Shown: one piece after another, positions 28,200-43,836 of the stretch
Position numbering within the stretch: the first letter of the stretch is position 1
How the letters are laid out: the number at the start of each line of letters is the position of its first letter
Assembly (NCBI GenBank): GCA_965228895.1
Contig: OZ245842.1
Location: forward strand, 5,216,001 to 5,280,000
Direction of reading: 5' to 3'
From: Alphaproteobacteria bacterium
GTDB lineage: Bacteria; Pseudomonadota; Alphaproteobacteria; SP197
Length of the DNA: 64,000 nucleotides
The notes under the pieces: generated by a model
Seen by the model: only the letters and a program-made list of their open reading frames with translations
Told to the model about the DNA's origin: nothing
Databases searched by the model: none
Position numbers and translations under genes: made by a program

Positions 28200-28274
<75 letters not shown>

Positions 28275-28497: not shown

Positions 28498-29067
28498 ATG
28501 ATTCTAGGCGCAATGAGCATGGCTAATCAAAATCGCCCGAGGTATATGCCCAACACCAGCAAGGCGTTGGAAGTCATCCTGTGGTTGGGCACACGCCAAC
28601 GCGGTATCGATGTATATCACCTCGTCAAAGCAGCCTTCTTTGCCGATAAGTCCCACATCACTGAGTATGGTCGGCCCATCATTGGGGACGACTACGAGGC
28701 CAAGACGTATGGGCCGCTGCCTCGCGTGATCTATGGGTTGCTGAAACACGATCTGCTGGAGATCCAGGCGGCGGGCACGAACGGCAAGCTTCCGTTCGAA
28801 ATCAAGGACGCGTACTGCGTTTACCCTGACCGTCCACCTAACCTCAGAAGGCTCTCGCAGAGCGATGTCGAGGCGCTGGAGTACGGCTACGACATCGTGA
28901 AGGACAAGTCTTTCGACGAACTGGTTGAGCTAACCCACGACGACCCTGCCTATATCAATGCCGATGGCGGAATGATGGATTATCGAGACTTCATCCCGTC
29001 AGACGACCCCGAACGCGATGAAAAAGCTCAGGACATTCTAGAGGTCGCTAGATACGCAGTAGTATAA
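28498..29067 (+). CDS. Panacea/SocA (DUF4065) antitoxin-like protein
   Basis: LVKAAFFADKSH..EYGRPIIGDDYEAKTYGPLP...L.ELTH pattern. Start could be a downstream in-frame ATG (MSMANQ). Confidence 0.8.
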   Translation: MILGAMSMANQNRPRYMPNTSKALEVILWLGTRQRGIDVYHLVKAAFFADKSHITEYGRPIIGDDYEAKTYGPLPRVIYGLLKHDLLEIQAAGTNGKLPFEIKDAYCVYPDRPPNLRRLSQSDVEALEYGYDIVKDKSFDELVELTHDDPAYINADGGMMDYRDFIPSDDPERDEKAQDILEVARYAVV

Positions 29068-29071
29068 GGCC

Positions 29072-29422: not shown

Positions 29423-29645
29423 ATCCGCCAGCTACTTCACCGTTGGAAAATCCGTCTCGTTTTCTAATGGACAGCCGCCGATGATCAGCGCAGCATCATA
29501 AAGCGGAGCCCCACAGGTGCGCGAACACCCGTGAGGCCCCTGACCACAACGACCTACTGCACAGGTGCGTCATGGCTGCAAAACCACATACCACAATAGA
29601 GAACTGTTGCACGCCTCCAGTGGGTCTCAACCACGGGAGAAAACA

Positions 29646-30065: not shown

Positions 30066-30357
30066 TGAAAACCTAGAACGCGCAGCTGCAATGGCCGCCA
30101 GCACCGCCAATCTCACCGCGTATGCAGCGTCAAGACTTAAAACCTCCGTCTTGGATCTAGAGGCAGACTTAACGGACTTACGCGGGGCGGCGGCGACACT
30201 ACACCAACTTGCCATGAAGCCGTCAGCCACCGGGGGTTCTGACAGTGAACTCGACGATGCCCTAGCATATCTAGCTGGCAATATCGTCAGTTACTCCGAC
30301 AGTCTATGGCATACGTTCGAGGATCTGCTGGCCGCCCAATCGGAACAGCAACCGTGA
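30058..30357 (+). CDS. Hypothetical helical protein
   Basis: GGAGG RBS before ATG 30058; overlaps the upstream stop. Confidence 0.6.
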   Translation: MSNENLERAAAMAASTANLTAYAASRLKTSVLDLEADLTDLRGAAATLHQLAMKPSATGGSDSELDDALAYLAGNIVSYSDSLWHTFEDLLAAQSEQQP

Positions 30358-30640: not shown

Positions 30641-31663
30641 TTACTCGTAATTGATATTGACGCTGCCGCCATCGAAGTTGCCGCCGCCAACAGAGGTCAG
30701 GCGAACCCTGTCCAGCTCGGCTGTCAGTGTCTTCGTGCCCGCCATATAGGCGACGTTGTTCCCATTGTCGGCGGCTATCAGGCTTGTTGCCGCCCAGAGA
30801 TTCGTGGAGGAATTCAGAAGCTCTAGGTGAACCATGCCGTCAAGCTCGGTCGCTGCGCCCTGAAGGTTGAGGAGAATGAAACCGGATGAGTTGGCAACAC
30901 CCGCAGTTTGCGAAGAATCCACGTTGGAACCCGTGTACCCGGATGTCTCGATGCCACCGCTGTCGCCAAGTTGGATGATGATGTCGGACGAACCGCTAAG
31001 GCTGACACCGGCCAGCATAACGGTGATCTTCTTTGTCCCCGAAGGGATCGAGGTGAAGTCCTTTGTGGTGCCAGAAGTCGTCGCCTGTGGTGTCTCTAGC
31101 GTGATGCCGAACGTGGGCAAGTCCTGCATCGTCGGAGTGTTGCCCGCACCGTTCGAAGTCAGAACCTGCCCGGAGGTGCCCTCATCAATAGGCGTAATGC
31201 CGAAGGCAAACCAGTTCGTGCCGTCCGTGGAGATCTGGACGCCTTGCTGATCACCGAGGGTGAGGGTTGTCTCACCGTTGATAGTCTCCGACGCGTTGCC
31301 GTCCAAGGTGATGTCCGAGCCGCCGTCGTTCACAACCGTAAAGACGAACGGGACGCCAACCGTGCCTGCGGCGGGCGTGGTGATCGTGATGCTGCCCGCA
31401 GTGGCGCGAATCAGCTTGCCCTGATCGCTGGTTTGGACGGTGTAGTTGACGCCCGTCGCCGTGACACCCGCGCCGCCAATGACTTTCCCAAAGGCCGAGG
31501 TGATGGCTGTCCAGGTGGCTTCCAGCGCCGTCTTGATGGGGTCGGCAAGCTTGGTCTTGTGCTTTGCCCACGTAACCGTGTTGTCAGCGCCAGACGTACC
31601 GTCATCAGGCGGAGGCGTGGAGTTGTAGCCCGATATTGACGGTGGGGTGAAAGGGTTAGCCAT
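30641..31663 (-). CDS. Phage fibre/spike-like structural protein
   Basis: Thr/Gly/Ser-rich beta-type sequence; NYTVQTSDQGKLI...ITTPAA...ETING module; GTSGQVLTSNG linker; C-terminal ATTSGT..DFTSIPSG.KKI domain of the kind seen in phage fibres. Confidence 0.65.
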   Translation of the reverse strand: MANPFTPPSISGYNSTPPPDDGTSGADNTVTWAKHKTKLADPIKTALEATWTAITSAFGKVIGGAGVTATGVNYTVQTSDQGKLIRATAGSITITTPAAGTVGVPFVFTVVNDGGSDITLDGNASETINGETTLTLGDQQGVQISTDGTNWFAFGITPIDEGTSGQVLTSNGAGNTPTMQDLPTFGITLETPQATTSGTTKDFTSIPSGTKKITVMLAGVSLSGSSDIIIQLGDSGGIETSGYTGSNVDSSQTAGVANSSGFILLNLQGAATELDGMVHLELLNSSTNLWAATSLIAADNGNNVAYMAGTKTLTAELDRVRLTSVGGGNFDGGSVNINYE

Positions 31664-31677: not shown

Positions 31678-32295
31678 TCAAAAGCCGCCATTGTTCCGCT
31701 TCCACTTTGCCATCTCGGAATCACTGGCATTGCGTGCCCACTCATCGAAGGCCTTGCTGTCGTCCTGAGCACCCGGTGTCTGTGCTGCCCTGACAGCTGA
31801 GGTCATAGCCTCCACGTCCGCCGTCACTTCAGGATCGGGCCGTGACGCCAGTTCCTTCTCCAGCGCCTTGGTGGCGCGCTTGAGGGCGCTGCCCCAAACG
31901 TCCGGTGCCTTGTTGCGGGCAGTAAAGGCAGCGGCGAAGCGCGGGTCGGTATAGAACTCTCCCAGCAGAAACTTCTTCACCGAGTCCTCTGATACCGCGC
32001 CCTCGATACCTCGATGAACGTCAGCTACGGCGCTGTCGATATCGGCGTTCTGGACTCTCAGCGCGTCCGCATAGACACGCTTGTCATTCTCGCTTTCAAG
32101 GCGCTCCAGGCGTTGTGTGGTGTCCTCAGGCTCAGTAGGCGTCTCGGGCTGTTCAGCTGGCGTCTCAGGCTCCTTGGGAGGCAGTGACGCATCGAACTCC
32201 GCCAGCAACGCATCCACGTCGTCCATCGTGTTGAGCGGGCGAACCTCTGGCTTCTCAGCCGCCACGCTCTCCTGATTCAGATCACCATCCGCCAT
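31678..32295 (-). CDS. Acidic scaffold-like protein
   Basis: Very acidic Pro/Glu-rich N-terminus, helical core, short aromatic C-terminal motif. Function is inferred. Confidence 0.5.
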   Translation of the reverse strand: MADGDLNQESVAAEKPEVRPLNTMDDVDALLAEFDASLPPKEPETPAEQPETPTEPEDTTQRLERLESENDKRVYADALRVQNADIDSAVADVHRGIEGAVSEDSVKKFLLGEFYTDPRFAAAFTARNKAPDVWGSALKRATKALEKELASRPDPEVTADVEAMTSAVRAAQTPGAQDDSKAFDEWARNASDSEMAKWKRNNGGF

Positions 32296-32473
32296 GGGCC
32301 ATCTTCCAGCGCCTGAGTTCGCCGTCGCTCATCATGCGGATCTTATCGTCGAAGGCCTTACGGGCTTCCTCCGTCTCGCCCTCGGCCTCCAACCGTTTCG
32401 AGGCGGCCTCATGCAGGCGTTTCACCTGTTCGACGGTGAGGTTGTCTGCGATGTCATCCGTGGTGACTGGCAT
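32282..32473 (-). CDS. 63-aa protein sharing the scaffold-like C-terminal motif
   Basis: RBS GGAGGAG; C-terminus KAFDDKIRMMSDGELRRWKMAHGGW. Confidence 0.7.
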   Translation of the reverse strand: MPVTTDDIADNLTVEQVKRLHEAASKRLEAEGETEEARKAFDDKIRMMSDGELRRWKMAHGGW

Positions 32474-32987
32474 TGTCCTTCTCCTCCAGTGTTTCAATTA
32501 GATTGATTGCGCGCTCGATTCCGTCGCGGCTTTGGAGCAACGGAGACTTGTGCTTTCTGAGTTCGCCGGTGGCCTCCGTCATCATGGCCTTGATCCGCGC
32601 TTCGAGCTGATCCAGTTCCCGGTGACGGTTCCGGACCTCGATCTCGCGCTGTTCCATGCTGTCTTCCTTGCGCGCCCACTTCGCCTCTAAATTGGCGATC
32701 CGCTTCTCGCGTCGCTCGTGGTCCTTCTGGCTCGCGGCAAGATACTCGCTCCACTTGCTCAGCTTTTTCTGCGCCCGTTCCAGTTCGCCCTCCGCCTTCG
32801 TAACGGCATCGCGGCGTTCGGTGAACTCCTTGAGCTTCTCCTCAAAAGCCTCGGGATCATTTACCGCGTGAACCAGCGCAATGGCGGCGGCCTCGTTGCC
32901 AGCCAGACCCGGCAGGTGGATGCTGTCGTGGTTCTCGCGTGGCTTGGGCTTCGGCACGTTGACTTGTTCGGGTTTCTCTTGCGTCAT
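32454..32987 (-). CDS. Coiled-coil hypothetical protein
   Basis: Charged heptad-rich 177 aa; ATGA overlap with the upstream gene. Confidence 0.75.
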   Translation of the reverse strand: MTQEKPEQVNVPKPKPRENHDSIHLPGLAGNEAAAIALVHAVNDPEAFEEKLKEFTERRDAVTKAEGELERAQKKLSKWSEYLAASQKDHERREKRIANLEAKWARKEDSMEQREIEVRNRHRELDQLEARIKAMMTEATGELRKHKSPLLQSRDGIERAINLIETLEEKDNASHHG

Positions 32988-35017
32988 TCATCCTCACCTT
33001 GTGCCGCCTGTAGTGCGGCGTCCAAACGTTGCTGCAAGAGTTGCGCGGAGCTGTTCCTGTCCACGTTCACGCCCATCTCGTTTTGCAGGATTTCCTTCAT
33101 CTGCTCGATGACGGGTGCGAGGTTCTGGTTCTGTGACGCGATGACGTTGAGCTGGGCCGCGTGGTTCGCCCACGACACGGTGCCGAAGCTCACGGTGGGT
33201 GCGTCCGCCATCCATCTGACAAGGCGCGGAGACATCAGTATCTTCGCTGCCAAGGTGGAGGCGGCGACAGTGCCGCCGACTGCCGCACCAGTCGCAACGG
33301 GAAGAACACCGGTCGAGAAGAAGTCCACCACCGCACCGGCACCGATAGCGCTGCCGATGAGGACGCGACCGGTACCGGAGTTGTTGTACATCCGCTCCGT
33401 TCGCCGAATGCTCGACAACACCTCGGCAAAGTTATCGAGCTCTTCTCTCAGGCCCGGTGTGGCCTCGAACAGGATGTCCTTGCCGCCATCGGAGAGGCGG
33501 TTGTAGTTGGTGAGAAAGCGGTTCATCGAGAAATCGACTTCCGCAATCTCACCGGCATTGCCTGCCAAAGGACGGCCCATTTCTCTGATGACGCTGGCGG
33601 CGACTTCGTTCCACGTCGCGTCGTCCATCGCGGAGCGGATCTCCTGAAGCTCCCTGAGAGACGCGCCCGCTCGTTCCCCGGCCCGTTTGACCAACAAGTC
33701 ATACGTGGCCTCTCCCGACGCATTGGGATCGAGCAGGCGGTTAAGTGCGTTCTGTATCTTCTCGGCACCAAGACGGTAGAACTCGTCGGCCCGATTGATG
33801 GCCTGCAACGCGTCCGGCCCCAACGTTTCGGCAAACGTCTTCATGTCATCGGTGATGGCACCGTAGAGCTCGCGGAGGGCCTGGGTGTCCAGGTCCGCGC
33901 CCAAGACAACTTGGGGCTTGGCAAGCAGGCGTCCGATTTCCGTTCGGAACGATCGCAGGTCTGAGTAGGTGAGCGCGCCGTCGTTGTTGCGGATGGCGTT
34001 GGCCCAGCGCTCGAAGCGCGGTGACACGAACGCATCACCCAACTCCGCCAGATCGAACTTCGCGGCAGATCCGGAGAGGGCATTGATGGTCTCCGTCATC
34101 TGCACCTGTGCGGTGGGTGAGAAGAGATCATCGACCCGCTGATAGAGCGCTCTTGCCTTGAGCGCGAAGCCTTCGCCCTCCGGCAGGCTCAGATTCCGCG
34201 TGGCTGTTCGGAAGATGTTGCTGATGGCCTCTTCGCTCAGGTCGCCCGCGACATTCACACTGCCACGGAACGCTTCCGCTCCGGCCTGGGCAGCTTCTCC
34301 GCCTGCCAAGCGGGACACCGACGTGCCGCCAGTGGACGCCGCAAGCTCTTCTGCCGCGTCTGCCGCACTCCCAGCCGTGCGCGCCATGCCGCGCTCGATG
34401 ACATTGCCTGCAACCGGCGTCTCGCGAAGGGTGGAGACGACACCACGAACGGTGCGGTTCTCCATGGCCGTCGCCAGCGTCGGCGTTACACCGGCCTGAC
34501 GGAAGCGGCCAACGGTTTGGCCGAGACGCGTAGCCTGGGCAGCGGGTTGGATGACGTTGCGCGACACCAGATTACCGAAACGCGGCACACCGCCCGGCAC
34601 ACTGCCGCCCATGGCTCCGAACGAAAGAACGCGTCCCAAGGCAAGCAAGCGTTCGTCGGTTTCTTCGGAGCGCAGGTACACCGTTCTCTGGCCGGTAGCC
34701 GGGTCGATCAGTTGGACGTGGATTTGTGGGTCGAAGTCAATCCAACTGCCGTCATCACGCAGGGCAATCGGCCCGAAGTCAGCCTCCAACCACTTGCCGA
34801 TGCGTTCGTAGTTGGGCTCGCCTTGAAGGTTGCGGACGATAGGCGAGGTGCCCTGGAATGCCGCCTCCAGTTCCGTCTGGAAACCCTCGGCAACGGCACC
34901 AGCGCCTGACACCTCACGTGTGTTCTCAGGGAACGTCGTCATGGGCTCCGGGATGGGCGGTGCTGTCTCACCGGCGGCACGGCGGACGTCGGCAAGCCTT
35001 TCTTCAAGAGAGGCCAT
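32984..35017 (-). CDS. Putative internal virion / DNA-ejection protein (large)
   Basis: 677 aa, Ala/Gly-rich and helical; LTYSDLRSFRTEIG, NNSGTGR then hydrophobic Gly/Ala segments and LMSPRLVRW, recalling P22-gp16-type transfer proteins. Confidence 0.6.
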   Translation of the reverse strand: MASLEERLADVRRAAGETAPPIPEPMTTFPENTREVSGAGAVAEGFQTELEAAFQGTSPIVRNLQGEPNYERIGKWLEADFGPIALRDDGSWIDFDPQIHVQLIDPATGQRTVYLRSEETDERLLALGRVLSFGAMGGSVPGGVPRFGNLVSRNVIQPAAQATRLGQTVGRFRQAGVTPTLATAMENRTVRGVVSTLRETPVAGNVIERGMARTAGSAADAAEELAASTGGTSVSRLAGGEAAQAGAEAFRGSVNVAGDLSEEAISNIFRTATRNLSLPEGEGFALKARALYQRVDDLFSPTAQVQMTETINALSGSAAKFDLAELGDAFVSPRFERWANAIRNNDGALTYSDLRSFRTEIGRLLAKPQVVLGADLDTQALRELYGAITDDMKTFAETLGPDALQAINRADEFYRLGAEKIQNALNRLLDPNASGEATYDLLVKRAGERAGASLRELQEIRSAMDDATWNEVAASVIREMGRPLAGNAGEIAEVDFSMNRFLTNYNRLSDGGKDILFEATPGLREELDNFAEVLSSIRRTERMYNNSGTGRVLIGSAIGAGAVVDFFSTGVLPVATGAAVGGTVAASTLAAKILMSPRLVRWMADAPTVSFGTVSWANHAAQLNVIASQNQNLAPVIEQMKEILQNEMGVNVDRNSSAQLLQQRLDAALQAAQGEDE

Positions 35018-36228
35018 CAGAACCCCCGCTTTTCGAGTTCAGCGTCGAGCTGTGCCTTCTCATCGGCAGAAAGCGTTGAGAGGTCGATGCTTCCAAGCTC
35101 GGCAAGGCTCATGCTTGAGAAGTCGATTGGCGTGGCTAACCCGCTCTCACGAATACGGCTTCTGACGACGTTGGCAGGTGACACACCGGCCTCGTTCGCG
35201 GCGGTCGTGAAGTGAGATTCAAGGCTGCGCTGGTCGATGAGGAACTGCTCGTAGGAAGCTTGCGCTGCTTGCACCATGGCTTCGCGCATGTCGTCGGGCA
35301 GGATCTCGCCGCTGTCCAAACGTTGCAGGGCCTGCACCAGTTGTGAGCCTAGCCCCATAGCCTGGCCCGTGGTGGCGAACTCACCCTCGGTAACGCGGCT
35401 GCCGGGGTCCAGGACTTTGAAGAACGAGAACGTCAGCGCGACATCGCTCAGGCCCGTCGCATCCCCCGCCAAGTCCTGCATGATGAAGAACTGGCGCTGC
35501 ACCTCTTCAAAGCCCACCGACTGACGGTCGAAGTCGTCACGCAGGTTGTTCTCGACGGTGAGAATCTGGCTCGGGTCCAAACCGCCTTCAGCCCCAGACA
35601 CCAGTGGACTTATCTGGCCCGTCGTCTGGTTCATCTGCACGACGCTACCGGGGGCGAATCCCGACGCTTGAACTTCAGCGGGCGTCAACAGCCTGAAGCT
35701 GTCTGGACGTTTCGGCAGGTCAAAGGCGGACTGTTGCGCCGTTGCCGGATCGATACCCTGCGCAATAAGGGCATCCTCTGTTGCGGCCTGTCCCGCGACA
35801 CTGGCCTCTGCGTCCAGAGTAGCCGTCTGAAGTGTCTCTTCCCGTTTGGTGGGTGTCGCGGCGAACTGCGAAAGAAACGTCTGGAACCGATTCGGCTGTC
35901 CAAGCTGGCCGTAGAGTGTCCCGATCTGAGCAAGCATGCCCCGGATCATGCCAGCGTGCCGGGCGGTAAACTCTGTGGTGTCACCGCCGAGATAACTGGA
36001 CTTCAGGTTAAGCAGCGTTTCCTGCAACGTCGCGATGGCGTTTTCGCCCTCCTGCTGCATCGCGAAAGCTTCTTCTCGTTTGAGCTTGCGCGCCTCCAAG
36101 TCAGCCTGGAACTGCTGCAATCCAAGCTGCTCCTCGGCAAGGCCGATGCGCTGCTCGTCGAGTGCAAGATTTCTGGCGGTCTGCTGCCCACGTGCAAAGC
36201 CGCCGAGTGTGATTCCTGTCAGTGCCAT
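35017..36228 (-). CDS. Putative internal virion / DNA-ejection protein (medium)
   Basis: 403 aa from MALTGITLGGFARG; Gln-rich coiled coil; SDVALTFSFFKVLDPGSRVTEGEF motif recalled from podophage virion proteins; TGATG-coupled to the next gene. Confidence 0.6.
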   Translation of the reverse strand: MALTGITLGGFARGQQTARNLALDEQRIGLAEEQLGLQQFQADLEARKLKREEAFAMQQEGENAIATLQETLLNLKSSYLGGDTTEFTARHAGMIRGMLAQIGTLYGQLGQPNRFQTFLSQFAATPTKREETLQTATLDAEASVAGQAATEDALIAQGIDPATAQQSAFDLPKRPDSFRLLTPAEVQASGFAPGSVVQMNQTTGQISPLVSGAEGGLDPSQILTVENNLRDDFDRQSVGFEEVQRQFFIMQDLAGDATGLSDVALTFSFFKVLDPGSRVTEGEFATTGQAMGLGSQLVQALQRLDSGEILPDDMREAMVQAAQASYEQFLIDQRSLESHFTTAANEAGVSPANVVRSRIRESGLATPIDFSSMSLAELGSIDLSTLSADEKAQLDAELEKRGF

Positions 36229-36711: not shown

Positions 36712-37053
36712 TCAGTTGTCCTTGACGGCTTCGAGACGCTGGACGAGATCGACTCGCTCATTGTCCGAGGCGGTTCTGTACCAGTCGCGCAACAGCGCTT
36801 CCGTCACCGCCTTGGGCGTGTCTGTCGAGACATCACGCTCCTCGAAGACAGGGCCTCGAAGGCGGGGATTGTCGGGATCTTCGTGCTTCGCACGCTCAGC
36901 GTCGTCGCCGGTGAACTGTGCCAGCTTGACCGTCTCTTTCAGACCGAGCTGCGCGACGATATCGCTGACGAACTTCCTGCGTGTACCGGAGAGGGCTTCG
37001 TAGAATCTGGCGTCGAGTTTGTCGTTATTGCCGAGTGAGTTGATTTGAGCCAT
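36712..37053 (-). CDS. Small paralog 2 of tandem triplet
   Basis: GGAGG RBS; same C-terminal motif. Confidence 0.75.
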   Translation of the reverse strand: MAQINSLGNNDKLDARFYEALSGTRRKFVSDIVAQLGLKETVKLAQFTGDDAERAKHEDPDNPRLRGPVFEERDVSTDTPKAVTEALLRDWYRTASDNERVDLVQRLEAVKDN

Positions 37054-37312
37054 AGGCGTGAGCCTCCAGGGCGTTCACGATTAGCTCCCGTTTTTCGTTG
37101 TCGCCCGCTTGGTACAGGCTGTTGATTTTTTCGTTCATTTCGTCAGCCGTGGCATCGGGGTGGGCCTCCAGTTCAAGCTCCTTGCATACCCGGCGCTTGG
37201 GACCACGGCGAATGGCATCCAGCGCACGCTTGCGACGGCTATCAAGATGGCGCGCGTCAAAGGCGCTCTGCATCGCCGCTGCCTTTGCTTCTGTCGTCGG
37301 GATGGCCTTCAT
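37025..37312 (-). CDS. Small paralog 1 of tandem triplet (95 aa)
   Basis: GAGGA RBS before ATG 37312 (MKAIPTTEAK); same C-terminal motif. Confidence 0.72.
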   Translation of the reverse strand: MKAIPTTEAKAAAMQSAFDARHLDSRRKRALDAIRRGPKRRVCKELELEAHPDATADEMNEKINSLYQAGDNEKRELIVNALEAHAYGSNQLTRQ

Positions 37313-37317
37313 GTCCT

Positions 37318-37638
37318 CTAGTTCCCATTCGATGCGTCTGTCACAGCCGTGCCATCGGGCATCACACCCGTCACTTCCGACATCCGGCGCGCCATGTCGT
37401 TCAGCGCCGCCAACTGTGCCGCGCGTTTGGCCTCTTCCGCGTTCTCTCTCACGAACCGCGTCATCTCGATCATCCACCTCAGGCTGAAGTCGCCGATCAG
37501 CTTCTGAGCCTCGATGTCCGACTGCGGACCCAACTCCGTCTGCGATGTCCGCTCGTGCAGCATCTCCAGCCCCTCCGACAGCTCCAACAGCGTCGCCAGA
37601 TCGAACCTTGGGCGGTCTTCCGCTTCGGCTAGCGCCAT
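37318..37638 (-). CDS. Hypothetical helical protein (106 aa)
   Basis: GGAGG RBS; acidic amphipathic helices. Confidence 0.7.
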   Translation of the reverse strand: MALAEAEDRPRFDLATLLELSEGLEMLHERTSQTELGPQSDIEAQKLIGDFSLRWMIEMTRFVRENAEEAKRAAQLAALNDMARRMSEVTGVMPDGTAVTDASNGN

Positions 37639-37897
37639 CAGGTTCCTCCAAAAACCTCGTCAGTCTCTCGTTCAGGGCACCCGGCTCCGGCAACGGTGAC
37701 CGCCACCGCAGCCGATCCTGGAGGTGAAGGATGTACGCCCTCGTGCGCTTGTCCTTCAGCGCCTCCGTCGCACGTGTCGTCAACGAACCCCTTGCCATAT
37801 CCGCGACCGCCGCTGCACGAGCACCGTTGCCCAGGACGACAAATGCCTCGGCAAAACGCTTGCGCTTGCGTGTCACGCCAAATGGCCGGGCCTCCAT
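37638..37897 (-). pseudogene. Terminase small subunit-like HTH gene, frame-disturbed
   Basis: VTRKRKRFAEAFVVLGNGARAAAVA...RATEALKD...AYI resembles the TerS N-terminal HTH. The expected AGY motif is out of frame and the main frame lacks a stop at the next gene. Confidence 0.55.
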
Positions 37898-38456: not shown

Positions 38457-38651
38457 TTACCGTTGAAGACATGAAGTTGGTTTGGTTGCGGCCTCGCAGC
38501 GACGGCTGACAAGCTGCCCGGCCTCGTTCTCGGTCGTCGTGATGAACCACGCCCAGACGGTCCCGCAGTCCACGGTGTCGCTGCCCTTGTGTGCGGTGAG
38601 CCGCCAACCAGGCTCGGCAGGCATGAAGACGCTGTAGGTCTGTTGCTTCAC
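38457..38651 (-). CDS. Small hypothetical protein
   Basis: GTG start overlapping the helicase stop (GTGA); PAEPGW...VWAW. Confidence 0.45.
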   Translation of the reverse strand: MKQQTYSVFMPAEPGWRLTAHKGSDTVDCGTVWAWFITTTENEAGQLVSRRCEAATKPTSCLQR

Positions 38652-39712
38652 GCTACCCACACCCATTCATCCCAGACGCCGATCAGCCCACGCTCCTGCA
38701 AGCCCTCAGACGCACGCTTGAACGCCTTTGACCTGGTGTCGGCCTTGTCGCTCGTGGTCACGATTCCGAGGTCGCAGTAGCGCCGCCACAGCGCCACGCT
38801 TACTGCCTGTGTGTTTGGTGGGATGTGGTTGCTAGCTGGAGGCACCTTGCCGCTCTCATCGATGGCCTTCTGGAGCATCTTGAGTGCGTTCTGCTGCTGC
38901 GCAGGTGGCTTCTTGCTCGTCTGGCGTTTGGCGGGCTCATAATCGTCCACTGGATCAACGACGCATGACGTTATCTCGTCACCATCCACGTCCTCACCGA
39001 CGACAACCTGCCTGATGGCGCTGGCCCACTGCGTACCGTCCTCGGTATCACGCATGGCACGCACCTCCGCGATGGTTTGGTTCTGCTTGTCCTTCTGGAC
39101 GGCAATCTCAGCATCCAGAGCGCCCAGGAGCGACGTGTGACCACGGTAGCGGGTTTCATCGAGGCCGCAGTGGTGCACGACGACCGCAGTGCAGTTGAAC
39201 GCGTTTCTGATCATGTCCAGCGCACCGATGTAGGCCGTCATGTCCGTGTCGGAACTCTCGGATCCGGTGAACGTCCTGTTCAACGTATCGACGATGACGA
39301 GAACGGGCGGCTCGTCCATCTGCATGGCGATGCTGTTGATGAGCTCGTCTTTCTGGTGAACGAGTTCCAGGCGAACCGTAATGAGCTTCAGGGGCGTCTC
39401 CGCTGCACCCTCGGCCATCTTCTCCTGGCGAAAGGCTTCAACGCGCTTGGCGAGCCCGCCACCGCCTTCAGCGGCTATGTAAAGGACGGGTCCTTGCACG
39501 ACACGGCGGCCACGGTACTCCCAGCCCAGCGCGACATGCATGCAGAGGTCGAAGGCAAGGAAGGACTTCCCGGACTTCGGCGGTCCCCACCACACGACAA
39601 TACCGTTCTTCGGAACGATGCCCTTGACGATGTAGTCGCGCTCATCGGACAGACGTACGTCGTCGAAATTGACGATTGGGATGGTGGGCAAATCCACTTC
39701 TCGAAGAGTCAT
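38648..39712 (-). CDS. RepA/AAA_25 (RecA-fold, SF4-like) replicative helicase
   Basis: Walker A GPPKSGKS, LYIAAEG, Walker B VIVDT, VVHH, RGHTSL.GA.D. Confidence 0.9.
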   Translation of the reverse strand: MTLREVDLPTIPIVNFDDVRLSDERDYIVKGIVPKNGIVVWWGPPKSGKSFLAFDLCMHVALGWEYRGRRVVQGPVLYIAAEGGGGLAKRVEAFRQEKMAEGAAETPLKLITVRLELVHQKDELINSIAMQMDEPPVLVIVDTLNRTFTGSESSDTDMTAYIGALDMIRNAFNCTAVVVHHCGLDETRYRGHTSLLGALDAEIAVQKDKQNQTIAEVRAMRDTEDGTQWASAIRQVVVGEDVDGDEITSCVVDPVDDYEPAKRQTSKKPPAQQQNALKMLQKAIDESGKVPPASNHIPPNTQAVSVALWRRYCDLGIVTTSDKADTRSKAFKRASEGLQERGLIGVWDEWVWVA

Positions 39713-40209
39713 GCAGCCACCTTCATGGTGTCGTTGAACACCACCTTCGGCACGACGCCAGTCACGCCCTCAAACGCCCTACGTACCGCTCGACCATGCC
39801 CGAAGTGGTCGCACTCCAGCGTCAGGCGCGGCGTGCCACAGAACAGTTCCGCCAGCACCGTAATGTCGACGGCGCAGAGGTCGTCTGTGTTGCGCAGCCA
39901 TGCCGACACGTAGCGGTGCACGCGGACGGTGCCGTGCCTGAACATCGGATTGCCCAGCAGCCGCGCTTGGCCGGTCAGGAGGTGAACATCGGCCGGCCTG
40001 GCAGGGTCGAGGGCGATGCAGTCAACTAGTCGCCCGTCCCAGGGATCGAAGCATGGGACAACGAGGTGACGCTTGCCGTCGCAATCGTCGAGGGCGGCGA
40101 CATGGCCGTCGAGAAACGCGTCCCATAGGTCCAGTGACTTGATGAACGCCGCACCGTTATCGAAGGCCGTGTATTCCTTGGCTGCCAGGATGGAGTCGTG
40201 CGGGGTCAT
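39709..40209 (-). CDS. Hypothetical protein coupled to the helicase
   Basis: ATGA overlaps on both sides; 166 aa. Confidence 0.7.
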   Translation of the reverse strand: MTPHDSILAAKEYTAFDNGAAFIKSLDLWDAFLDGHVAALDDCDGKRHLVVPCFDPWDGRLVDCIALDPARPADVHLLTGQARLLGNPMFRHGTVRVHRYVSAWLRNTDDLCAVDITVLAELFCGTPRLTLECDHFGHGRAVRRAFEGVTGVVPKVVFNDTMKVAA

Positions 40210-41231
40210 GGCTGGGCCTCCATCCGCGACATGACGAAGCCGATATCTTCGAAGGCTTCGGCGAACGTGTGGGGACGACTACCCAAGTACGAAAACGCCT
40301 GTCCCTGTGTCGGAGATCCTGTATGGCCGTCACACCGCACAAATTTGATGCGCCCGCGGGTGAAGCAGATTGCTGATGCCTTTGATGCAATCCGGTGAAA
40401 CCACTCGGTGTCGGTGTAGTTGTGTGTCAACAGCACCGCCTCGGTCGTGTGCCCCGCCTCAAACTCGGCTATCAGTTTGTCGATGAACTGCACAATTGCT
40501 GGCTGAGCGTAGGGCGGATTAAGCCAGACTCGCCCGCGCCATGGTTCGTCCAGGCCGCTATGTTCAGCGGTGAAATAGTCGGTCGCCTTGACCGTCGCCT
40601 GCGCATCGGTGCTGGTCGCGGGATCGAGGTCGATTTCACCCAGAAAGTCACGAACGATCTCTATGTACTCGGCCGGTGTGTACCACTCCGTCTCGCCCGT
40701 GCCGAAGGCGCCGCGAACATGGGGTTCGTCGCGAAGGACGCGTTGAACCGTGCGCTGACTGAGGCCCGTCTCTTCGGCTATCTGGCGAGCAACGCCCGGC
40801 AGCTGCTGCGGCGACTTACTTTGCCCACGCGCATCGACACCTGGGTGCGACATTCTGTCGCGGCCAGCTTCGCGGCGTTTTTCGAGAAGCTCTGCATATC
40901 GTCGGATATGCCGGTCGCGTTCGTCCTTGGTCAAATCGACGCGGTGGAGATTTTCGGCCAACTCCCAGAGTTCGCGCTCGTCCTCATCGATGTCGAGAAA
41001 CCGGACGGGTACGAACTCCCATTCAAGCCTGCGACAAGCCTCTAGGCGATGGTGGCCTGCAACCAGACGTACACCGTCTTCAGCGAGACAAACATCAATG
41101 GGAGTTTGAAGACCAATATCGTCAATCGACTTTGCAATGGCACCGATACGGTCGGGACGAACGGCGCGATGACGGTCGCCAATCTTGATTGCGTCGAGAC
41201 GGATATCGGCGACGCCCTTTTCGATAATCAT
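40206..41231 (-). CDS. ParB/Srx-domain + phage-type DNA N6-adenine methyltransferase fusion
   Basis: IGLQTPI, LVAGHHRLEA, LAENLHR.DLT (ParB); HTH-like linker; EWYTP, DLDPAT, VWLNPPY (Dam-type MTase). Confidence 0.88.
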   Translation of the reverse strand: MIIEKGVADIRLDAIKIGDRHRAVRPDRIGAIAKSIDDIGLQTPIDVCLAEDGVRLVAGHHRLEACRRLEWEFVPVRFLDIDEDERELWELAENLHRVDLTKDERDRHIRRYAELLEKRREAGRDRMSHPGVDARGQSKSPQQLPGVARQIAEETGLSQRTVQRVLRDEPHVRGAFGTGETEWYTPAEYIEIVRDFLGEIDLDPATSTDAQATVKATDYFTAEHSGLDEPWRGRVWLNPPYAQPAIVQFIDKLIAEFEAGHTTEAVLLTHNYTDTEWFHRIASKASAICFTRGRIKFVRCDGHTGSPTQGQAFSYLGSRPHTFAEAFEDIGFVMSRMEAQP

Positions 41232-41419: not shown

Positions 41420-41620
41420 TCATGCTGCCTCGTCGCCGTCGCGTTCAGCGATACGGTCGGCGATCCACCGATCAACCTCGTCTTCGACAAAGCCGATCTT
41501 CGTTGGACTTAAGACAACTGGCTTGGGGAAGCGGCCTTGACGGACCAAGCGCATAATCGATTCCGGATGGTACCCACCCGAACGCTTCGCCGCTTCCTTC
41601 TTGGTTATGATGCACGACAT
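41420..41620 (-). CDS. alpA: AlpA family regulator / excisionase
   Basis: 66 aa; GRFPKPVVLS...GFVEDEVDRWI signature; GGAG RBS. Confidence 0.9.
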   Translation of the reverse strand: MSCIITKKEAAKRSGGYHPESIMRLVRQGRFPKPVVLSPTKIGFVEDEVDRWIADRIAERDGDEAA

Positions 41621-41718
41621 TGTTGAGGTATCTCCCAACAGGTTGAGGGAGACATCCAATTAGCGCCGTAGTCGGGCTCTGTCGTCGAGCTACCCCGGCA
41701 AGTTTTGCAGGGGGTTAA

Positions 41719-42393
41719 TCACGCGTTGTGTCTGCGCTGGTAGCGGTTGGCGATTTCATTGATCTGGTCTGAAATCTCTTGGCGACGTTCGGCAATCTGC
41801 TCCTCGCTGAACTTAGCCCGGATCTCTGGCAACAACAGTTGCGCTAGTTCACGGTTCAGGGGTGTGACTTGCTCAAAGTAGGACCAGTTGCGATCCGAGG
41901 TCTCAGTGCTCTGGTCGATATCCGTCTTTCCGACGGTGTCCTGAACGTGAAACGCTAACTCATCGTAGGCTCGCTTGCGGTCGTCGCCGCGGTAGTGGTC
42001 AACAACCACCTGGTAGCATGTGCGAGCAAGCTGGCTATCGGGTTCATTGAAGTTGAGCCGGAAGGTGTTGCGGGCGACGTTCTCTTTCGGCCACCGGCTC
42101 TCCAGGTCCGCTAGAATCTCTAAGGCGTGTCCAACGGCATAGGCTGCATCGGCGACCGGGTCGTGGATCTGATGAGTGAACCGCACGTTCCTACCGACTT
42201 CTGACAGTTTCGTTTGCGCTTTGGTAAGGCGCTTTCGCTCAGCTGCGAGATCACTGCGAATCTCACTCAGGCGTGGTGAACCCCCATCTGCCGATGACAC
42301 CTCTCGATACATGGCGACAGTCAGTTCGATTGATTTTCGGAACTCCGAAACATCGGCAGGCCCAAAGAGGTCGATAAGCTCGTCAACTGTCAT
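41719..42393 (-). CDS. Hypothetical protein downstream of integrase (224 aa)
   Basis: ATGA overlap with the integrase stop. Confidence 0.7.
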   Translation of the reverse strand: MTVDELIDLFGPADVSEFRKSIELTVAMYREVSSADGGSPRLSEIRSDLAAERKRLTKAQTKLSEVGRNVRFTHQIHDPVADAAYAVGHALEILADLESRWPKENVARNTFRLNFNEPDSQLARTCYQVVVDHYRGDDRKRAYDELAFHVQDTVGKTDIDQSTETSDRNWSYFEQVTPLNRELAQLLLPEIRAKFSEEQIAERRQEISDQINEIANRYQRRHNA

Positions 42394-43628
42394 GCCAGCA
42401 CGCTGACACCATCGCCGACAACGACACCTTCGACATGACCGGCCCAGCGTTCTATCCACTGGCGCTTGAGGTCCAAGCTGTAGCCATGGCTGTATGCGTC
42501 GGTCACGGAACCGGAACCGGCGTGGTTGAGAACAAGTCCGCGCTCGTACTCGGATGCGCCCTCGTTCTGCATCCAGGTGGTGATGGTGCGACGATGGTTG
42601 TGGGGTATCCAGTCCTCAACGCCACTAGCCTTCCGCACCTTGCGCATGAGGGGCGAGCTCGGGTGGATGGGCTTTTTCTTGTGGCGTCCGGGAAACACCA
42701 GTGGTTCGTCGCTATCCTTTTTGCGTAGGGTCTTGAGGACGCGTGCCGCAAGGGGAGGGATAGGGACGAGGTAGACGCGCTCTTTTGCTGTCAGCTTGGA
42801 CTTGGTGCGCTCGAAGGGGATGGTCCAAAGCGTAGGCTTGTCGGGGTCGTCCAGTTCATCCCAGCGCATGCCAGCGAGTTCTAGGCGACGCACACCTAGC
42901 AACGTCACCAGCTTCACGAACCCGCGCTCTTGGGCGTTGAGATCCTCTTGTGCTGTCCACAGCCGCTTGATCTCATCGTCGTCATAGACACGTTCCCGCG
43001 CCTTTTTGGGGATGGCGGGCCGCACGCTGTCCATGATGGGCGCATCGACGATTTCCCGCTCGTAGGCGTACCGCCAGAGCGTCCTGAGCCACGAAAGGGT
43101 GACGCGGGCCTTGCTGGCCTTCTCCTCGTCTATGTAGCCCTCGATCAGCTTGAAGGCGTCGCGCCGGGTGATGGAGTTCATGGGTTTGTCGCCCCACGGG
43201 ACCGTCTCCAGGATCCTCTGCGTCTCTTCCCAGGTTCGCTGACGACGCTTGGCGTGTTTCTCGATGAACTCCTCGACCACAGCCTCGTAGGTATTGCTGC
43301 GCGCTTCAGCGGCGGCCTCTCGTTCGCGTTTGACAGCGTCGCGAGGGTCTAGGCCCTGCTCGGCCTCCCTGGCGAACCCACGGGCCTTCTCGCGGGCCTC
43401 TGCGATCCCGATGGAGGGATAGGACCCAAAGGTCATCTTGTGCTGCCTGCCGTCGAGCCTGAAGAAGTAGACCCAGGATGTCTTGCGCGTGCCGATGCGA
43501 GCACATAACCCCTTCTCAACCTCGTCGAACTTATCAACGCGTCCGGTCTTCGGACGCTTGGCCTCCAGTATCTTCTGGGTCAGGACATAGCTCTTGGGCG
43601 CCTTGCGTTCGCTTTTCTGATTGCCCAT
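42390..43628 (-). CDS. int: Tyrosine recombinase/integrase with N-terminal arm-binding domain
   Basis: GLCARIG..SWVYFFR.DG....TFGSYP.IGIAEAR arm domain; catalytic R (GVRRLE), K (RTK), H-x-x-R (HNHRRT), H (LNH), Y (DAY). Adjacent to attR. Confidence 0.96.
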   Translation of the reverse strand: MGNQKSERKAPKSYVLTQKILEAKRPKTGRVDKFDEVEKGLCARIGTRKTSWVYFFRLDGRQHKMTFGSYPSIGIAEAREKARGFAREAEQGLDPRDAVKREREAAAEARSNTYEAVVEEFIEKHAKRRQRTWEETQRILETVPWGDKPMNSITRRDAFKLIEGYIDEEKASKARVTLSWLRTLWRYAYEREIVDAPIMDSVRPAIPKKARERVYDDDEIKRLWTAQEDLNAQERGFVKLVTLLGVRRLELAGMRWDELDDPDKPTLWTIPFERTKSKLTAKERVYLVPIPPLAARVLKTLRKKDSDEPLVFPGRHKKKPIHPSSPLMRKVRKASGVEDWIPHNHRRTITTWMQNEGASEYERGLVLNHAGSGSVTDAYSHGYSLDLKRQWIERWAGHVEGVVVGDGVSVLA

Positions 43629-43652
43629 CAGTCGCTCACCAAAATCGTGAAT

Positions 43653-43787: not shown

Positions 43788-43836
43788 CTGATTCGTAATC
43801 AGTAGGTCGGGAGTTCGAATCTCCCCTTCGGCACCA
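43788..43836 (+). repeat. attR (49-bp duplicate of tRNA-Thr 3' part)
   Basis: Identical to 28226-28274. Confidence 0.97.

What the first reader, a model, noticed from the sequence alone, without database searches (positions are those of the whole stretch)
31678..32473. Scaffold-like protein and a 63-aa mini-protein end in the same 25-aa motif
Seen: the C-termini KAFDEWARNASDSEMAKWKRNNGGF and KAFDDKIRMMSDGELRRWKMAHGGW align without gaps at 12/25 identities, and the genes are adjacent and overlapping. Known: phage scaffolds such as P22 gp8 bind coat protein through a short C-terminal helical motif, and SaPI CpmB is a small scaffold mimic that drives small capsids. Inference: a long and a short coat-binding protein could hijack or shrink the helper procapsid to fit 15.6 kb, or block helper assembly.
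Basis: partly seen in the sequence, partly recalled or inferred. Interest (0 to 1): 0.82.

Follow-up and report, generated by a model that had tools for sequence, protein, structure and literature searches.

The report
Satellite island with scaffold-tail mimic
A 15.6-kb mobile island with no capsid gene of its own carries a copy of a resident phage's head-scaffolding protein plus a tiny protein that keeps only that scaffold's tail, so it probably hijacks the phage's head assembly.

Summary
The 205-aa protein (31678-32295, -) and the overlapping 63-aa protein (32282-32473, -) end in the same 25 residues (12/25 identical). Among the tails of 101,847 open frames of this genome, the only other comparable tail belongs to a 198-aa protein of a 43.3-kb prophage elsewhere in the chromosome.

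That 198-aa protein and the 205-aa protein belong to an unnamed family of about 200 aa (781 clusters). In 43 of 43 phage contexts examined, the family member lies between the portal-position gene and the major capsid gene, which is the scaffolding position. Only the island copy lies elsewhere.

The island is 15,562 bp, sits at tRNA-Thr and is flanked by 49-bp repeats. It has an integrase, an AlpA-like gene, a replication gene, two ejection-protein homologues and a tail-fibre homologue. It has no capsid, portal or large terminase gene. One public assembly holds its circular or concatemer junction.

Best reading: a phage satellite whose scaffold homologue and CpmB-like tail mimic dock on the helper's coat protein. 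Coat binding and capsid shrinkage are inferred, not shown. The 63-aa protein has no relative anywhere, and no sister island was found. I rate it a new variant of a known kind.

The parts
28200..28274 (+). Intact tRNA-Thr(CGU). Its 3' 49 nt (28226-28274) are the left copy of the island's direct repeat (attL core).
   Evidence: ARAGORN; alignment with the right copy; the joint has 49 letters that fit both sides.
28498..29067 (+). Cargo gene at the island's left end: a SocA/Panacea antitoxin-domain protein (189 aa). It is followed by a 116-aa ORF of no family (29072-29422).
   Evidence: PF13274, E = 1.2e-15, above the cut-off.
30641..31663 (-). Tail-fibre-like protein (340 aa), 81% identical to the last structural gene of the resident prophage.
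   Evidence: tblastn 81% over 340 aa. Its C-terminal half matches phage genes annotated as tail fiber, major tropism determinant or tail collar. DNA identity is 88-93% in the first 270 nt and falls to 54-70% at the 3' end.
31678..32295 (-). sc205: a divergent member of a ~200-aa family that occupies the scaffolding-protein position in podophage-type genomes. It ends in the shared 25-aa tail.
   Evidence: E = 6.5e-39 against the family HMM built without it. The AF2 model is all-helical with a C-terminal helix-turn-helix at 180-189 and 192-201.
32282..32473 (-). mini63: a 63-aa protein that aligns only with the last ~30-60 residues of the scaffold family and ends in the shared tail. No relative is known.
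   Evidence: AF2 predicts four helices; the last two (34-47, 50-59) have pLDDT 92-93.
32454..32987 (-). cc177: a 177-aa coiled-coil-like protein of no family, island-specific, translationally coupled to mini63.
   Evidence: Only sub-threshold coiled-coil Pfam matches. No paralogue elsewhere in the genome.
32984..35017 (-). ej677: a homologue of podophage injection, ejection or DNA-transfer proteins, 48-50% identical to the prophage's 670-aa protein.
   Evidence: tblastn to phage genes so annotated; own-genome paralogue E = 4.4e-183; phrog_36512.
35017..36228 (-). ej439: a second virion or ejection-type protein (403 aa from the ATG at 36228; the ORF is open to 36336). Its C-terminal half is 50% identical to the prophage's 462-aa protein.
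   Evidence: matches 'virion structural protein' of Mx8 and CRP-901.
37025..37897 (-). Weak small-terminase-like N-terminus (residues 9-62) in a 290-aa open frame. The middle of that frame shows no coding signal; a 106-aa gene in another frame (37318-37638) does.
   Evidence: PF03592, E = 0.0026, 18.8 bits, under the 26.1 cut-off. GC3 frame plot and translations.
38648..39712 (-). Replication protein (354 aa) with an AAA_25 domain.
   Evidence: PF13481, E = 1.9e-34. phrog_2850 and the phrog_906 'DNA polymerase/primase' C-terminal part.
40206..41231 (-). ParB-N plus Dam-type adenine methyltransferase fusion (341 aa).
   Evidence: PF05869, E = 1.1e-16. PF02195, E = 1.3e-4, below its cut-off.
41420..41659 (-). 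AlpA/excisionase-like regulator (79 aa).
   Evidence: phrog_66, E = 2e-9.
42390..43631 (-). Tyrosine integrase. The probable start is the ATG at 43631; the open frame runs on to 43850.
   Evidence: PF13356, PF00589, PF22022.
43788..43836 (+). Right copy of the 49-nt direct repeat (attR core); a partial tRNA-Thr.
   Evidence: One contig of run X2 joins 43787 to 28226.

Best explanation
The window holds a 15,562-bp integrative island at tRNA-Thr. It behaves like a phage satellite of a podophage-type prophage that lies in the same chromosome (43,338 bp, at tRNA-Glu, with an N4-gp56-type major capsid protein). The island has no coat, portal or large terminase gene. It carries its own set of procapsid-interior and host-contact parts: two ejection-protein homologues, a tail-fibre homologue, a full-length scaffolding-protein homologue (sc205), and a 63-aa protein (mini63) that is little more than the scaffold's C-terminal helix-turn-helix. 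Proposed mechanism (inferred): the shared 25-aa tail is the coat-binding hook of this scaffold family, as in P22 gp8 and 80alpha SP. Through it both island proteins dock on the helper's coat protein. sc205 would replace the helper's scaffold and, as in P22, co-assemble the island's own ejection proteins into the shell. mini63 would compete for the same coat site in the way SaPI1 CpmB does. That would favour smaller shells (about T=4, enough for 15.6 kb, which is 36% of the helper genome) or at least poison helper-sized assembly. Shown: the motif, the family, the family's position next to capsid genes, the island's bounds and gene content, the helper candidate, and a circular or concatemer junction. 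Inferred: coat binding, competition, and size change. My odds: satellite about 0.75; tail is the coat-binding hook about 0.7; size reduction about 0.35.
For: - Shared tail.
- sc205 is homologous to the prophage's 198-aa protein, which lies directly between the 626-aa portal-position protein and the phrog_1357 major head protein.
- The family has 781 clusters at E <= 1e-3, all about 176-266 aa among the 150 listed.
- A capsid homologue starts 20-244 nt downstream of the family member in 39 of 39 IMG/VR loci. A portal-position homologue ends 93-761 nt upstream in 36 of those 39; the other 3 hold under 200 nt upstream. The order is the same in the resident prophage, in MW202713 (hhalign 98%) and in genomes G135 and G297.
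- The tail is predicted as a confident helix-turn-helix in both proteins.
- The island is bounded by 49-nt repeats at a tRNA. It has integrase, AlpA-like, Rep and weak TerS-like genes and no capsid gene. There is exactly one MCP360-type match in the genome, and it is in the prophage.
- Island genes match the prophage at 81% (fibre), 48% (ej677), 50% (ej439, C-terminal half) and 44% (sc205, C-terminal 87 aa).
- Gene order (ej-ej-cc177-mini63-sc205-fibre) differs from the phage order (portal-scaffold-capsid ... ej-ej-fibre), so deletions alone cannot give it.
- One 1,767-nt contig of run X2 runs from the integrase end (43787) into the island's left end (28226), with 49 shared letters and 100 letters on the short side.
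- Helper size: 46-nt repeats 43,338 bp apart beside an integrase-like gene and tRNA-Glu.
- Precedent, passages read: CpmB and the 80alpha SP share a C-terminal motif and bind coat protein alike (PMC5644958). The P22 scaffold hook binds the coat N-arm, and the scaffold co-assembles the ejection proteins (PMC12005531). Abstract read: Rcm of SaPIpT1028 mimics its helper's scaffold (PMC12409344).
Against: - No result here shows coat binding.
- mini63 has no relative among 5.8 billion proteins: 1 hit, itself, among 4 candidates. Nothing speaks for its conservation.
- A whole-length family HMM built without this genome's proteins scores mini63 at only E = 0.85.
- No sister island was found. The scaffold family occurs in 0 of 32 other genomes of the family/order and in 2 of 400 of the class, both in phage contexts. 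ej677 occurs in 0 of 400.
- sc205 is only 30% identical to the helper's scaffold. In the tree it groups with another long branch, P0025, not with the helper's protein. Compatibility with this helper's coat is therefore assumed.
- The TerS-like match is under Pfam's cut-off and its frame is doubtful.
- Satellites typically lack tail genes (PMC10085698, passages). A fibre and ejection proteins fit a phage remnant as well.
- Three island copies (46.7 kb) are close to the helper's 43.3 kb. Packaging of concatemers into full-size heads, as described for marine elements (PMC9618062, passages), would need no size change.
- The junction is one assembled contig in one run. That run comes from the same study as the run that looks like the genome's own source.
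Confidence: 0.5

Rival explanations
1. Interference only. mini63 is a dominant-negative decoy that caps the scaffold-binding site on the helper's coat (or on its portal). This lowers helper yield, as a defence or as a competitive move by the island, without making smaller capsids. The island would be packaged as concatemers in normal-size heads.
For: mini63 keeps the tail but lacks the family's central helical body, so it may bind without building a lattice. Three island copies (46.7 kb) are close to the helper's length of 43.3 kb. Concatemer packaging without size change is described for marine elements (PMC9618062, passages). The island also carries a Panacea-domain cargo gene.
Against: The island's own sc205 carries the same tail and would be blocked too. 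mini63 has about 35 residues of predicted helix ahead of the hook, as the dimerising CpmB does (PMC5644958). Nothing here tests either outcome.
Confidence: 0.2
2. Defective or mosaic prophage remnant. The island is what is left of a relative of the resident phage after deletions and rearrangements. sc205 is a leftover scaffold gene and mini63 is a leftover fragment of a second scaffold gene. Neither has a dedicated role.
For: Four island genes are homologues of the prophage's structural genes. Tail and ejection genes are unusual in satellites (PMC10085698). mini63 is an orphan. No sister islands were found. The TerS-like frame looks disturbed.
Against: All structural frames are open and tightly coupled, with overlaps of 4-20 nt. 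mini63 has its own strong ribosome-binding site and normal codon-position GC. It keeps the family's conserved tail positions and scores higher on the tail profile than the helper's own scaffold. The gene order cannot arise by deletion alone. Exactly the genes a satellite can borrow are missing: coat, portal, TerL and the head-completion genes. The replication module differs from the prophage's. The element still gives a circular or concatemer junction.
Confidence: 0.15
3. The tail is an address label, not a size device. It docks proteins to the procapsid interior (coat, portal or ejection-protein dome) so that they are packaged. mini63 would then be a small cargo protein delivered with the DNA, or a chaperone for the island's ejection proteins.
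For: In P22 the same C-terminal hook also contacts the portal, and the scaffold's inner end docks the ejection proteins (PMC12005531, passages). mini63 and sc205 lie directly after the island's ejection-protein genes in one operon.
Against: Scaffold proteins leave the shell at packaging, according to the same paper. I know of no case of a cargo protein that uses a scaffold hook (recalled, not searched).
Confidence: 0.1

Closest known systems
SaPI1 CpmB versus the phage 80alpha scaffolding protein (PMC5644958; passages read)
   Same: A satellite without its own coat gene encodes a small all-helical protein (CpmB 72 aa; mini63 63 aa). Its C-terminus copies the helper scaffold's C-terminal coat-binding motif. 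The helper scaffold is about 200 aa with the motif at its very end.
   Different: No sequence link is known: the CpmB motif is RIIK in a helix-and-hook, whereas here the tail is a predicted helix-turn-helix ending GG[FW]. The helper is a podophage-type prophage of a Gram-negative-type host, not a staphylococcal siphophage. This island also carries a full-length scaffold homologue, ejection proteins and a fibre, which SaPI1 does not. Binding, dimerisation and small capsids are untested here.
SaPIpT1028 Rcm (PMC12409344; abstract read)
   Same: A satellite protein that matches the topology of its helper's scaffold and is proposed to compete with it at the major capsid protein.
   Different: Rcm is a single multi-helical protein and is shown to be necessary and sufficient. 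Here there are two proteins, one long and one short, and no experiment.
P22 gp8 scaffolding protein (PMC12005531; passages read)
   Same: A predominantly helical protein encoded between the portal and coat genes. Its C-terminal helix-turn-helix hook binds the coat N-arm electrostatically, and the scaffold co-assembles the ejection proteins. The tails here are predicted helix-turn-helix with basic residues in the last helix.
   Different: gp8 has 303 aa, and no sequence or fold match to it was found. The capsid protein here is named N4-gp56 family by its sources, not P22-type.
PICI satellites as defined by five core components (PMC10085698; passages read)
   Same: Integrase, AlpA-like regulator and replication protein in that order, then packaging and capsid-directed genes. 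Integration is at a tRNA, and the size of 15.6 kb lies in their range.
   Different: [quoted passage not shown] The TerS match is sub-threshold. The capsid-directed genes belong to a different family.
External-scaffold satellites: P4 Sid and PLE TcaP (search listing and abstracts)
   Same: A satellite-encoded protein resizes the helper's capsid.
   Different: Those proteins form cages outside the shell and do not resemble the helper's internal scaffold. Here the candidates are homologues or mimics of the internal scaffold.

Membership tests
The ~200-aa scaffold-position family found here (unnamed; not in Pfam or PHROGs) | Significant sequence similarity to the family profile | tested here: met
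   sc205 scores E = 6.5e-39 against an HMM built from 38 members, without it and without the prophage protein. mini63 matches only the tail: E = 0.85 on the whole-length HMM and E = 4.7e-5 on the tail-only HMM.
The ~200-aa scaffold-position family found here (unnamed; not in Pfam or PHROGs) | The gene lies between the portal-position gene and the major capsid gene | tested here: not met
   Met by 43 of 43 other members examined. The island's sc205 lies between mini63 and the fibre gene, with no capsid gene in the island.
Phage internal scaffolding proteins (functional class) | Elongated all-helical protein with a flexible N-terminus and a C-terminal helix-turn-helix or hook | tested here: met
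   AF2 model of sc205: mean pLDDT 82.6, eight helices, no strands, residues 1-23 and 38-57 without structure, C-terminal helices 180-189 and 192-201. This is a prediction only.
Phage internal scaffolding proteins (functional class) | Binds coat protein, is needed for procapsid assembly, and is absent from mature virions | not testable with these tools
   Needs binding and assembly assays and particle proteomics.
P22 gp8-type or any other curated scaffold family | Match to a curated scaffold profile or to a solved scaffold structure | tested here: inconclusive
   sc205 and mini63 match 0 Pfam and 0 PHROG families at E <= 0.01. Of 40 family members, 2 match a PHROG of unknown function, a different one each. 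Fold searches gave nothing above noise.
CpmB-type size-redirecting scaffold mimic (SaPI1) | Encoded by an element that lacks its own major capsid gene | tested here: met
   No capsid, portal or TerL family was found in any of the 20 island ORFs scanned. The genome has a single MCP360-type match, in the prophage.
CpmB-type size-redirecting scaffold mimic (SaPI1) | Small helical protein whose C-terminus copies the helper scaffold's C-terminal motif | tested here: met
   mini63 has 63 aa and four predicted helices. Its tail scores 68 against the prophage scaffold's tail; the next best of 101,847 frames scores 25.
CpmB-type size-redirecting scaffold mimic (SaPI1) | Dimerises, binds the helper's coat protein and causes small capsids | not testable with these tools
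   Needs expression, electron microscopy and binding assays.
CpmB-type size-redirecting scaffold mimic (SaPI1) | Sequence homology to CpmB | not tested
   No CpmB sequence was fetched. The motifs described differ: RIIK in PMC5644958, GG[FW] with an [ST]D-x-E core here.
PICI (five core components, PMC10085698) | Integrase | tested here: met
   PF00589 and PF13356 in 42390-43850.
PICI (five core components, PMC10085698) | Regulator of the alpA, merR or stl type | tested here: met
   phrog_66 'excisionase and transcriptional regulator', E = 2e-9, at 41420-41659.
PICI (five core components, PMC10085698) | Primase-replicase module | tested here: inconclusive
   An AAA_25 domain and matches to the C-terminal parts of primase/helicase PHROGs. 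No primase domain was seen.
PICI (five core components, PMC10085698) | Small terminase subunit | tested here: inconclusive
   PF03592 at 18.8 bits against a 26.1 cut-off. The coding signal leaves the frame after about 85 codons.
PICI (five core components, PMC10085698) | No other phage structural or lysis genes | tested here: not met
   Two ejection-protein homologues and a fibre homologue.
cfPICI (capsid-forming PICI) | Own capsid, portal/connector, head-tail adaptors and TerL | tested here: not met
   None was detected in the island.

The most novel reading that the evidence does not exclude
This would be the first example of a satellite type that steals only the shell, portal, motor and tail hub of a podophage with an N4-gp56-type capsid. 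It would bring its own procapsid interior: a scaffold matched to its own ejection proteins, a scaffold-tail mimic that resizes the shell to T=4, and its own receptor-binding fibre. The mimic would have arisen independently of staphylococcal CpmB and Rcm, which would make scaffold-tail mimicry a general, convergent way for satellites to control capsid size.
Probability: 0.3. Interest if true: 0.8.

Novelty: new variant of a known kind. Interest (0 to 1): 0.64.

Why it matters
Capsid-size piracy by mimicry of the helper's internal scaffold is established only in staphylococcal islands (CpmB, Rcm). A second, unrelated case would show that the trick is convergent. It would sit in a different bacterial lineage, against a podophage, and with helper and satellite in one sequenced genome. 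It would also give a compact, testable pair: a 360-aa coat protein and three proteins that share one 25-aa tail.

The work further gives a likely function (scaffolding protein with a C-terminal coat hook) to an unnamed family of at least 781 protein clusters found next to N4-gp56-type capsid genes in metagenomes. A satellite that carries ejection proteins and a fibre would also widen what automatic satellite finders should accept, since they now treat tail genes as a sign of a phage.

Tried and rejected
- **Complex prediction** of the prophage coat protein (53-row alignment) with mini63 (22-row alignment): verdict 'no answer', score 0.00 in two runs, controls not run. This is no evidence either way.
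- **Fold searches.** sc205 against the PDB by Foldseek gave a best E of 2.8. Against BFVD the best E was 0.31. mini63 against 48,161 PDB representatives by VIA-align gave a best Z of 4.2, with only generic helical matches. No scaffold structure stood out.
- **tblastn against the 50,697 phage records.** sc205 gave no match. Family member P0019 gave no match.
- **Word-based homologue searches.** sc205 found only itself. mini63 found only itself.
- **The search for related loci.**
I then used smaller alignments: A5, A8 and A9.
  - Genome contigs with A5: none.
  - Metagenome contigs with P0025 and with A5: none.
  - Viral contigs with P0025: none. The context of sc205's nearest tree neighbour therefore stays unknown.
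- **Sequencing runs:** no RNA holder is listed, so nothing can be said on expression.
- **Read laying.**
  - A joint '33994 to 39285' has only 24 letters on its short side, and I disregard it.
  - A joint '45500 to 28171, 583 letters between' is the downstream tRNA-Glu gene resembling tRNA-Thr at the 85% threshold. It is not an empty site.
  - Contigs of X2 on the island have higher depth figures (about 3-15) than those on the flanks (about 1-3). The tool warns that these figures are no copy number, so I use them only as a hint.
  - X3 (same species label) holds next to none of the stretch. This is no proof of absence.
- **Iteron-like repeats** in 37880-38660: nothing convincing.
- **Rejected idea: mini63 is a recent duplicate of the 3' end of sc205.** Its tail fits the broad family consensus (M-S-D-x-E-[FL]) better than the N-A-[ST]-D variant shared by sc205 and the helper.
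- **Supplements** of the papers were not opened. Those of PMC10085698 and PMC9618062 list satellite gene repertoires and might already hold similar elements.
- **Print searches.** My claim that no satellite with scaffold, ejection and fibre genes is in print rests only on the searches.
Full report
**The observation.** The window's minus strand holds a 205-aa ORF at 31678-32295 (sc205). A 71-aa ORF lies at 32282-32497; its internal ATG at 32473 gives the 63-aa protein (mini63). BLASTP aligns them without gaps at 12/25 identities and 17/25 positives (pairwise E = 3e-6). mini63 looks like a real gene. GGAGGAG lies 7 nt before its ATG. Its GC content at codon positions 1/2/3 is 0.62/0.42/0.78, like its neighbours. 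It overlaps the upstream 177-aa gene by 20 nt and sc205 by 14 nt.

**Is the similarity more than chance?** I compared the last 25 residues of all 101,847 stop-terminated open frames of 30 aa or more in the whole genome, ungapped and anchored at the end.
- With mini63's tail as query, the two best foreign tails score 68 and 66.
- The next best scores 25; the background is -25.4 +/- 9.9.
- The score of 66 belongs to sc205. The score of 68 belongs to a 198-aa protein 2.66 Mb away in the same chromosome.
- A tail-only profile from 40 family members ranks exactly these three frames first in the genome: E = 1.3e-5, 4.7e-5 and 7.3e-5, with the next at 0.11. That profile includes sc205 and the 198-aa protein among its 40 rows.
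- Less favourable figures: a whole-length profile built without this genome's two proteins gives mini63 only E = 0.85, rank 4. The genome search with sc205 gives it E = 0.246.

**What the 205-aa protein is.** Neither sc205 nor mini63 matches any Pfam or PHROG family.
- A search of the own genome found a paralogue of sc205 (30% identity, E = 2.8e-15) and a paralogue of the neighbouring 677-aa protein (50%, E = 4.4e-183). Both lie in one region at about 2.57-2.62 Mb.
- That region reads, on one strand: large terminase (PF03237, PF17289), a 111-aa gene, a 626-aa portal-position protein (weak 'connector' PHROG), the 198-aa protein, and a 360-aa major head protein (phrog_1357, E = 2.4e-36).
- Seven kilobases downstream come homologues of the island's 439-, 677- and 340-aa proteins.
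- The region is flanked by 46-nt direct repeats 43,338 bp apart. An integrase-like gene and tRNA-Glu(UUC) lie at one end. It also carries ERF and HNH genes and has lower GC than its surroundings. It is a prophage of ordinary size.
- Relatives of its capsid protein are named 'N4-gp56 family major capsid protein' by their sources and occur on contigs of 40-46 kb.

**The family.** A profile of sc205 plus the 198-aa protein, run against 1.84 billion representatives, found 781 proteins at E <= 1e-3 and 173 at E <= 1e-10. The 150 listed are 176-266 aa long. I aligned 40 of those 150. The most conserved parts are a central F-x-x-A-[FW]-x-x-R-x-x-x-P stretch, a D-R-E-A-V-x-x-A-V-R stretch, and the tail M-S-D-x-E-[FL]-(7-9)-G.

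Two of the 40 members match a PHROG of unknown function, a different one each, so the family is unnamed. Its context is uniform.
- In 39 of 39 IMG/VR loci, a homologue of the 360-aa capsid protein starts 20-244 nt after the family match on the same strand.
- A homologue of the portal-position protein ends 93-761 nt before the match in 36 of those 39 loci. The other three hold under 200 nt of upstream DNA.
- The same order holds in the resident prophage and in two genomes of another family, G135 and G297.
- It also holds in the complete 'Podoviridae sp.' genome MW202713, where the 231-aa protein before the capsid gene matches the family profile (hhalign 98%, E = 2.2e-13).

That makes 43 of 43 phage contexts; the island copy is the only one elsewhere. 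Between portal and capsid is where internal scaffolding proteins are encoded in P22-like and many other tailed phages (established knowledge; PMC12005531 for P22).

The AF2 model of sc205 (pLDDT 82.6) is all-helical. It has an unstructured acidic N-terminal region, a long helix, a helical body and, after a linker, a confident helix-turn-helix at 180-189 and 192-201, which is the shared tail. I therefore read the family as scaffolding proteins and the tail as their coat-binding hook. The first step rests on position and predicted shape. The second rests on analogy with P22 gp8 and the 80alpha SP.

**What the 63-aa protein is.** Aligned with 21 family members, mini63 lines up with their last 60 or so residues only. 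Only the last 30 or so are significantly similar.
- Its tail fits the broad family consensus (M-M-S-D-G-E-L) better than the N-A-[ST]-D variant shared by sc205, the helper's protein and P0003. It is therefore not a fresh copy of either.
- AF2 predicts four helices; the last two (34-47, 50-59) have pLDDT 92-93.
- It has no relative in the 5.8-billion-protein collection.
- No open frame under 156 aa in the 41 phage loci carries the tail at E <= 1 (5,860 frames).

It is so far unique to this island.

**The island.**
- tRNA-Thr(CGU) at 28200-28274 is intact, and its last 49 nt recur at 43788-43836.
- Between the repeats, on the minus strand, lie: integrase, a 246-aa ORF, an AlpA/excisionase-like gene, a ParB-Dam fusion, an AAA_25 replication protein, about 700 nt without coding signal, a weak TerS-like N-terminus, several small genes, ej439, ej677, cc177, mini63, sc205 and the fibre-like gene.
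- Four plus-strand cargo ORFs follow, including a Panacea-domain protein.
- None of the 20 ORFs scanned is a capsid, portal, protease, adaptor or large terminase gene. The genome holds one MCP360-type gene, in the prophage.
- ej677 matches genes annotated as injection, ejection or DNA-transfer protein in podophages. In Rhizobium phage RHph_Y1_10 two such genes of similar sizes lie side by side.
- ej439 matches virion structural proteins.
- The fibre's C-terminal half matches genes annotated as tail fiber or tropism determinant.
- Identity to the prophage's counterparts is 81% (fibre), 48% (ej677), 50% (ej439, C-terminal half) and 44% (sc205, C-terminal 87 aa). cc177, mini63 and the replication genes have no counterpart.
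- Fibre DNA identity starts at the start codon at 88-93% and decays to 54-70% at the 3' end. This is the usual pattern for a conserved attachment end and a variable receptor end.

**Mobility.** Two public runs of one study hold the island.
- In run X1 the contigs show the integrated form, broken at the repeats.
- In run X2, one 1,767-nt contig runs from 42121-43787 straight into 28226-28325. That is a 'goes back 15,562' joint, with 49 letters common to both sides and 100 letters on the short side.
- This is the junction expected of an excised circle or a head-to-tail concatemer.
- It is a single assembled contig. The higher depth figures of island contigs over flank contigs in X2 are, by the tool's own warning, only a hint.

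**Interpretation.** The simplest account of all this is a phage satellite whose helper is the resident prophage or a close relative. It lacks what it can borrow: coat, portal, motor and tail hub. It keeps integration, regulation and replication genes, and it carries genes aimed at the helper's head.
- The P22 literature gives a reason for a scaffold gene to travel with ejection-protein genes. The scaffold is needed to bring them into the procapsid, and its inner end is their docking site (PMC12005531).
- The SaPI1 literature gives the precedent for mini63. CpmB, 72 aa, helical and dimeric, shares its C-terminal motif with the 80alpha scaffold, binds coat the same way and redirects assembly to small shells (PMC5644958). 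Rcm of SaPIpT1028 is a second case (PMC12409344, abstract).
- The island is 36% of the helper's length. My own estimate of a T=4 shell's volume is about 43% of T=7, so one copy would fit.

Against this:
- No binding has been shown.
- mini63 is an orphan.
- No sister island was found in 32 relatives or in 400 genomes of the class.
- sc205 is not the helper scaffold's closest relative.
- The TerS call is weak.
- Tail-related genes are untypical of satellites (PMC10085698).
- Three island copies would nearly fill a normal head.

The rivals, with my odds, are interference without resizing (0.2), a decayed mosaic prophage (0.15) and a capsid-targeting label (0.1).

**Comparison and novelty.** In how it would work, the pair resembles CpmB or Rcm set against their helpers' scaffolds. 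By membership it belongs to none of the curated families.
- It meets three of the five PICI core features clearly or partly.
- It fails the PICI 'no other structural genes' feature.
- It is not a cfPICI.

My literature searches turned up no satellite that combines a scaffold homologue, a scaffold-tail mimic, ejection proteins and a fibre, and none for phages with this capsid type. Supplementary tables were not available to me. I therefore rate it a new variant of a known kind. It is of moderate to high interest because helper, satellite and the three tail-bearing proteins are all at hand in one genome for direct tests.

Noticed in passing
window 37025-37897 (-): The 290-aa 'TerS-like' open frame has a coding GC3 signal only in its first ~85 codons and perhaps its last ~95. 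In between, the signal (GC3 0.85-0.90) lies in another frame, in a 106-aa ORF (37318-37638) that has its own GGAGGA ribosome site. The frames change near a T5 run. It may be three genes, a frameshifted small terminase, or a real overlap.
   Followed up: partly
window 36433-37312 (-): Three consecutive small genes (95 aa at 37025-37312, 113 aa at 36712-37053, 83 aa at 36433-36684) share a C-terminal motif (blastp E = 0.002-0.008). This is a second set of adjacent genes in the island with a common tail. No family matched them.
   Followed up: partly
window 28498-30357 (+): Cargo at the island's tRNA-proximal end: a SocA/Panacea antitoxin-domain protein followed 4 nt later by a 116-aa ORF of no family, which could be a toxin-antitoxin or defence pair. 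A 166-aa ORF (29565-30065) has, by eye, a twin-arginine-like signal (SRRSALTGAAA...).
   Followed up: no
window 37900-38640: About 700 nt between the replication gene and the TerS-like gene show no codon-position GC signal in any frame, although a 244-aa ORF is open there. This may be an origin, pac or regulatory region. Only three 10-nt repeats were found.
   Followed up: partly
own genome G000:C1:2573535-2616918 (outside the window; loci L009, L010, L019): A 43,338-bp prophage lies between 46-nt direct repeats at tRNA-Glu(UUC). It has TerL, a portal-position gene, a scaffold-family gene, an N4-gp56-type capsid gene, two ejection-type genes, a fibre, ERF and HNH genes and an integrase-like gene. 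It is the candidate helper.
   Followed up: yes
window 30641-31663 versus L009 12204-13226: DNA homology between island and prophage begins exactly at the fibre start codon and ends at its stop. Identity falls from about 90% at the 5' end to about 55-70% at the 3' end. This suggests a shared tail-attachment end and diverged receptor-binding ends.
   Followed up: yes
window 1079-1169 (+): ARAGORN calls a 91-nt tRNA-Phe(GAA) with the anticodon at position 37. That is unusually long for a bacterial tRNA, and it lies inside long open frames. It may be a false call or an odd tRNA.
   Followed up: no
protein P0025, tree: The nearest tree neighbour of sc205 is a 214-aa metagenomic protein on a similarly long branch (support 99/90). 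Its genomic context could not be recovered, so whether it is another 'orphan' scaffold on a satellite is unknown.
   Followed up: partly
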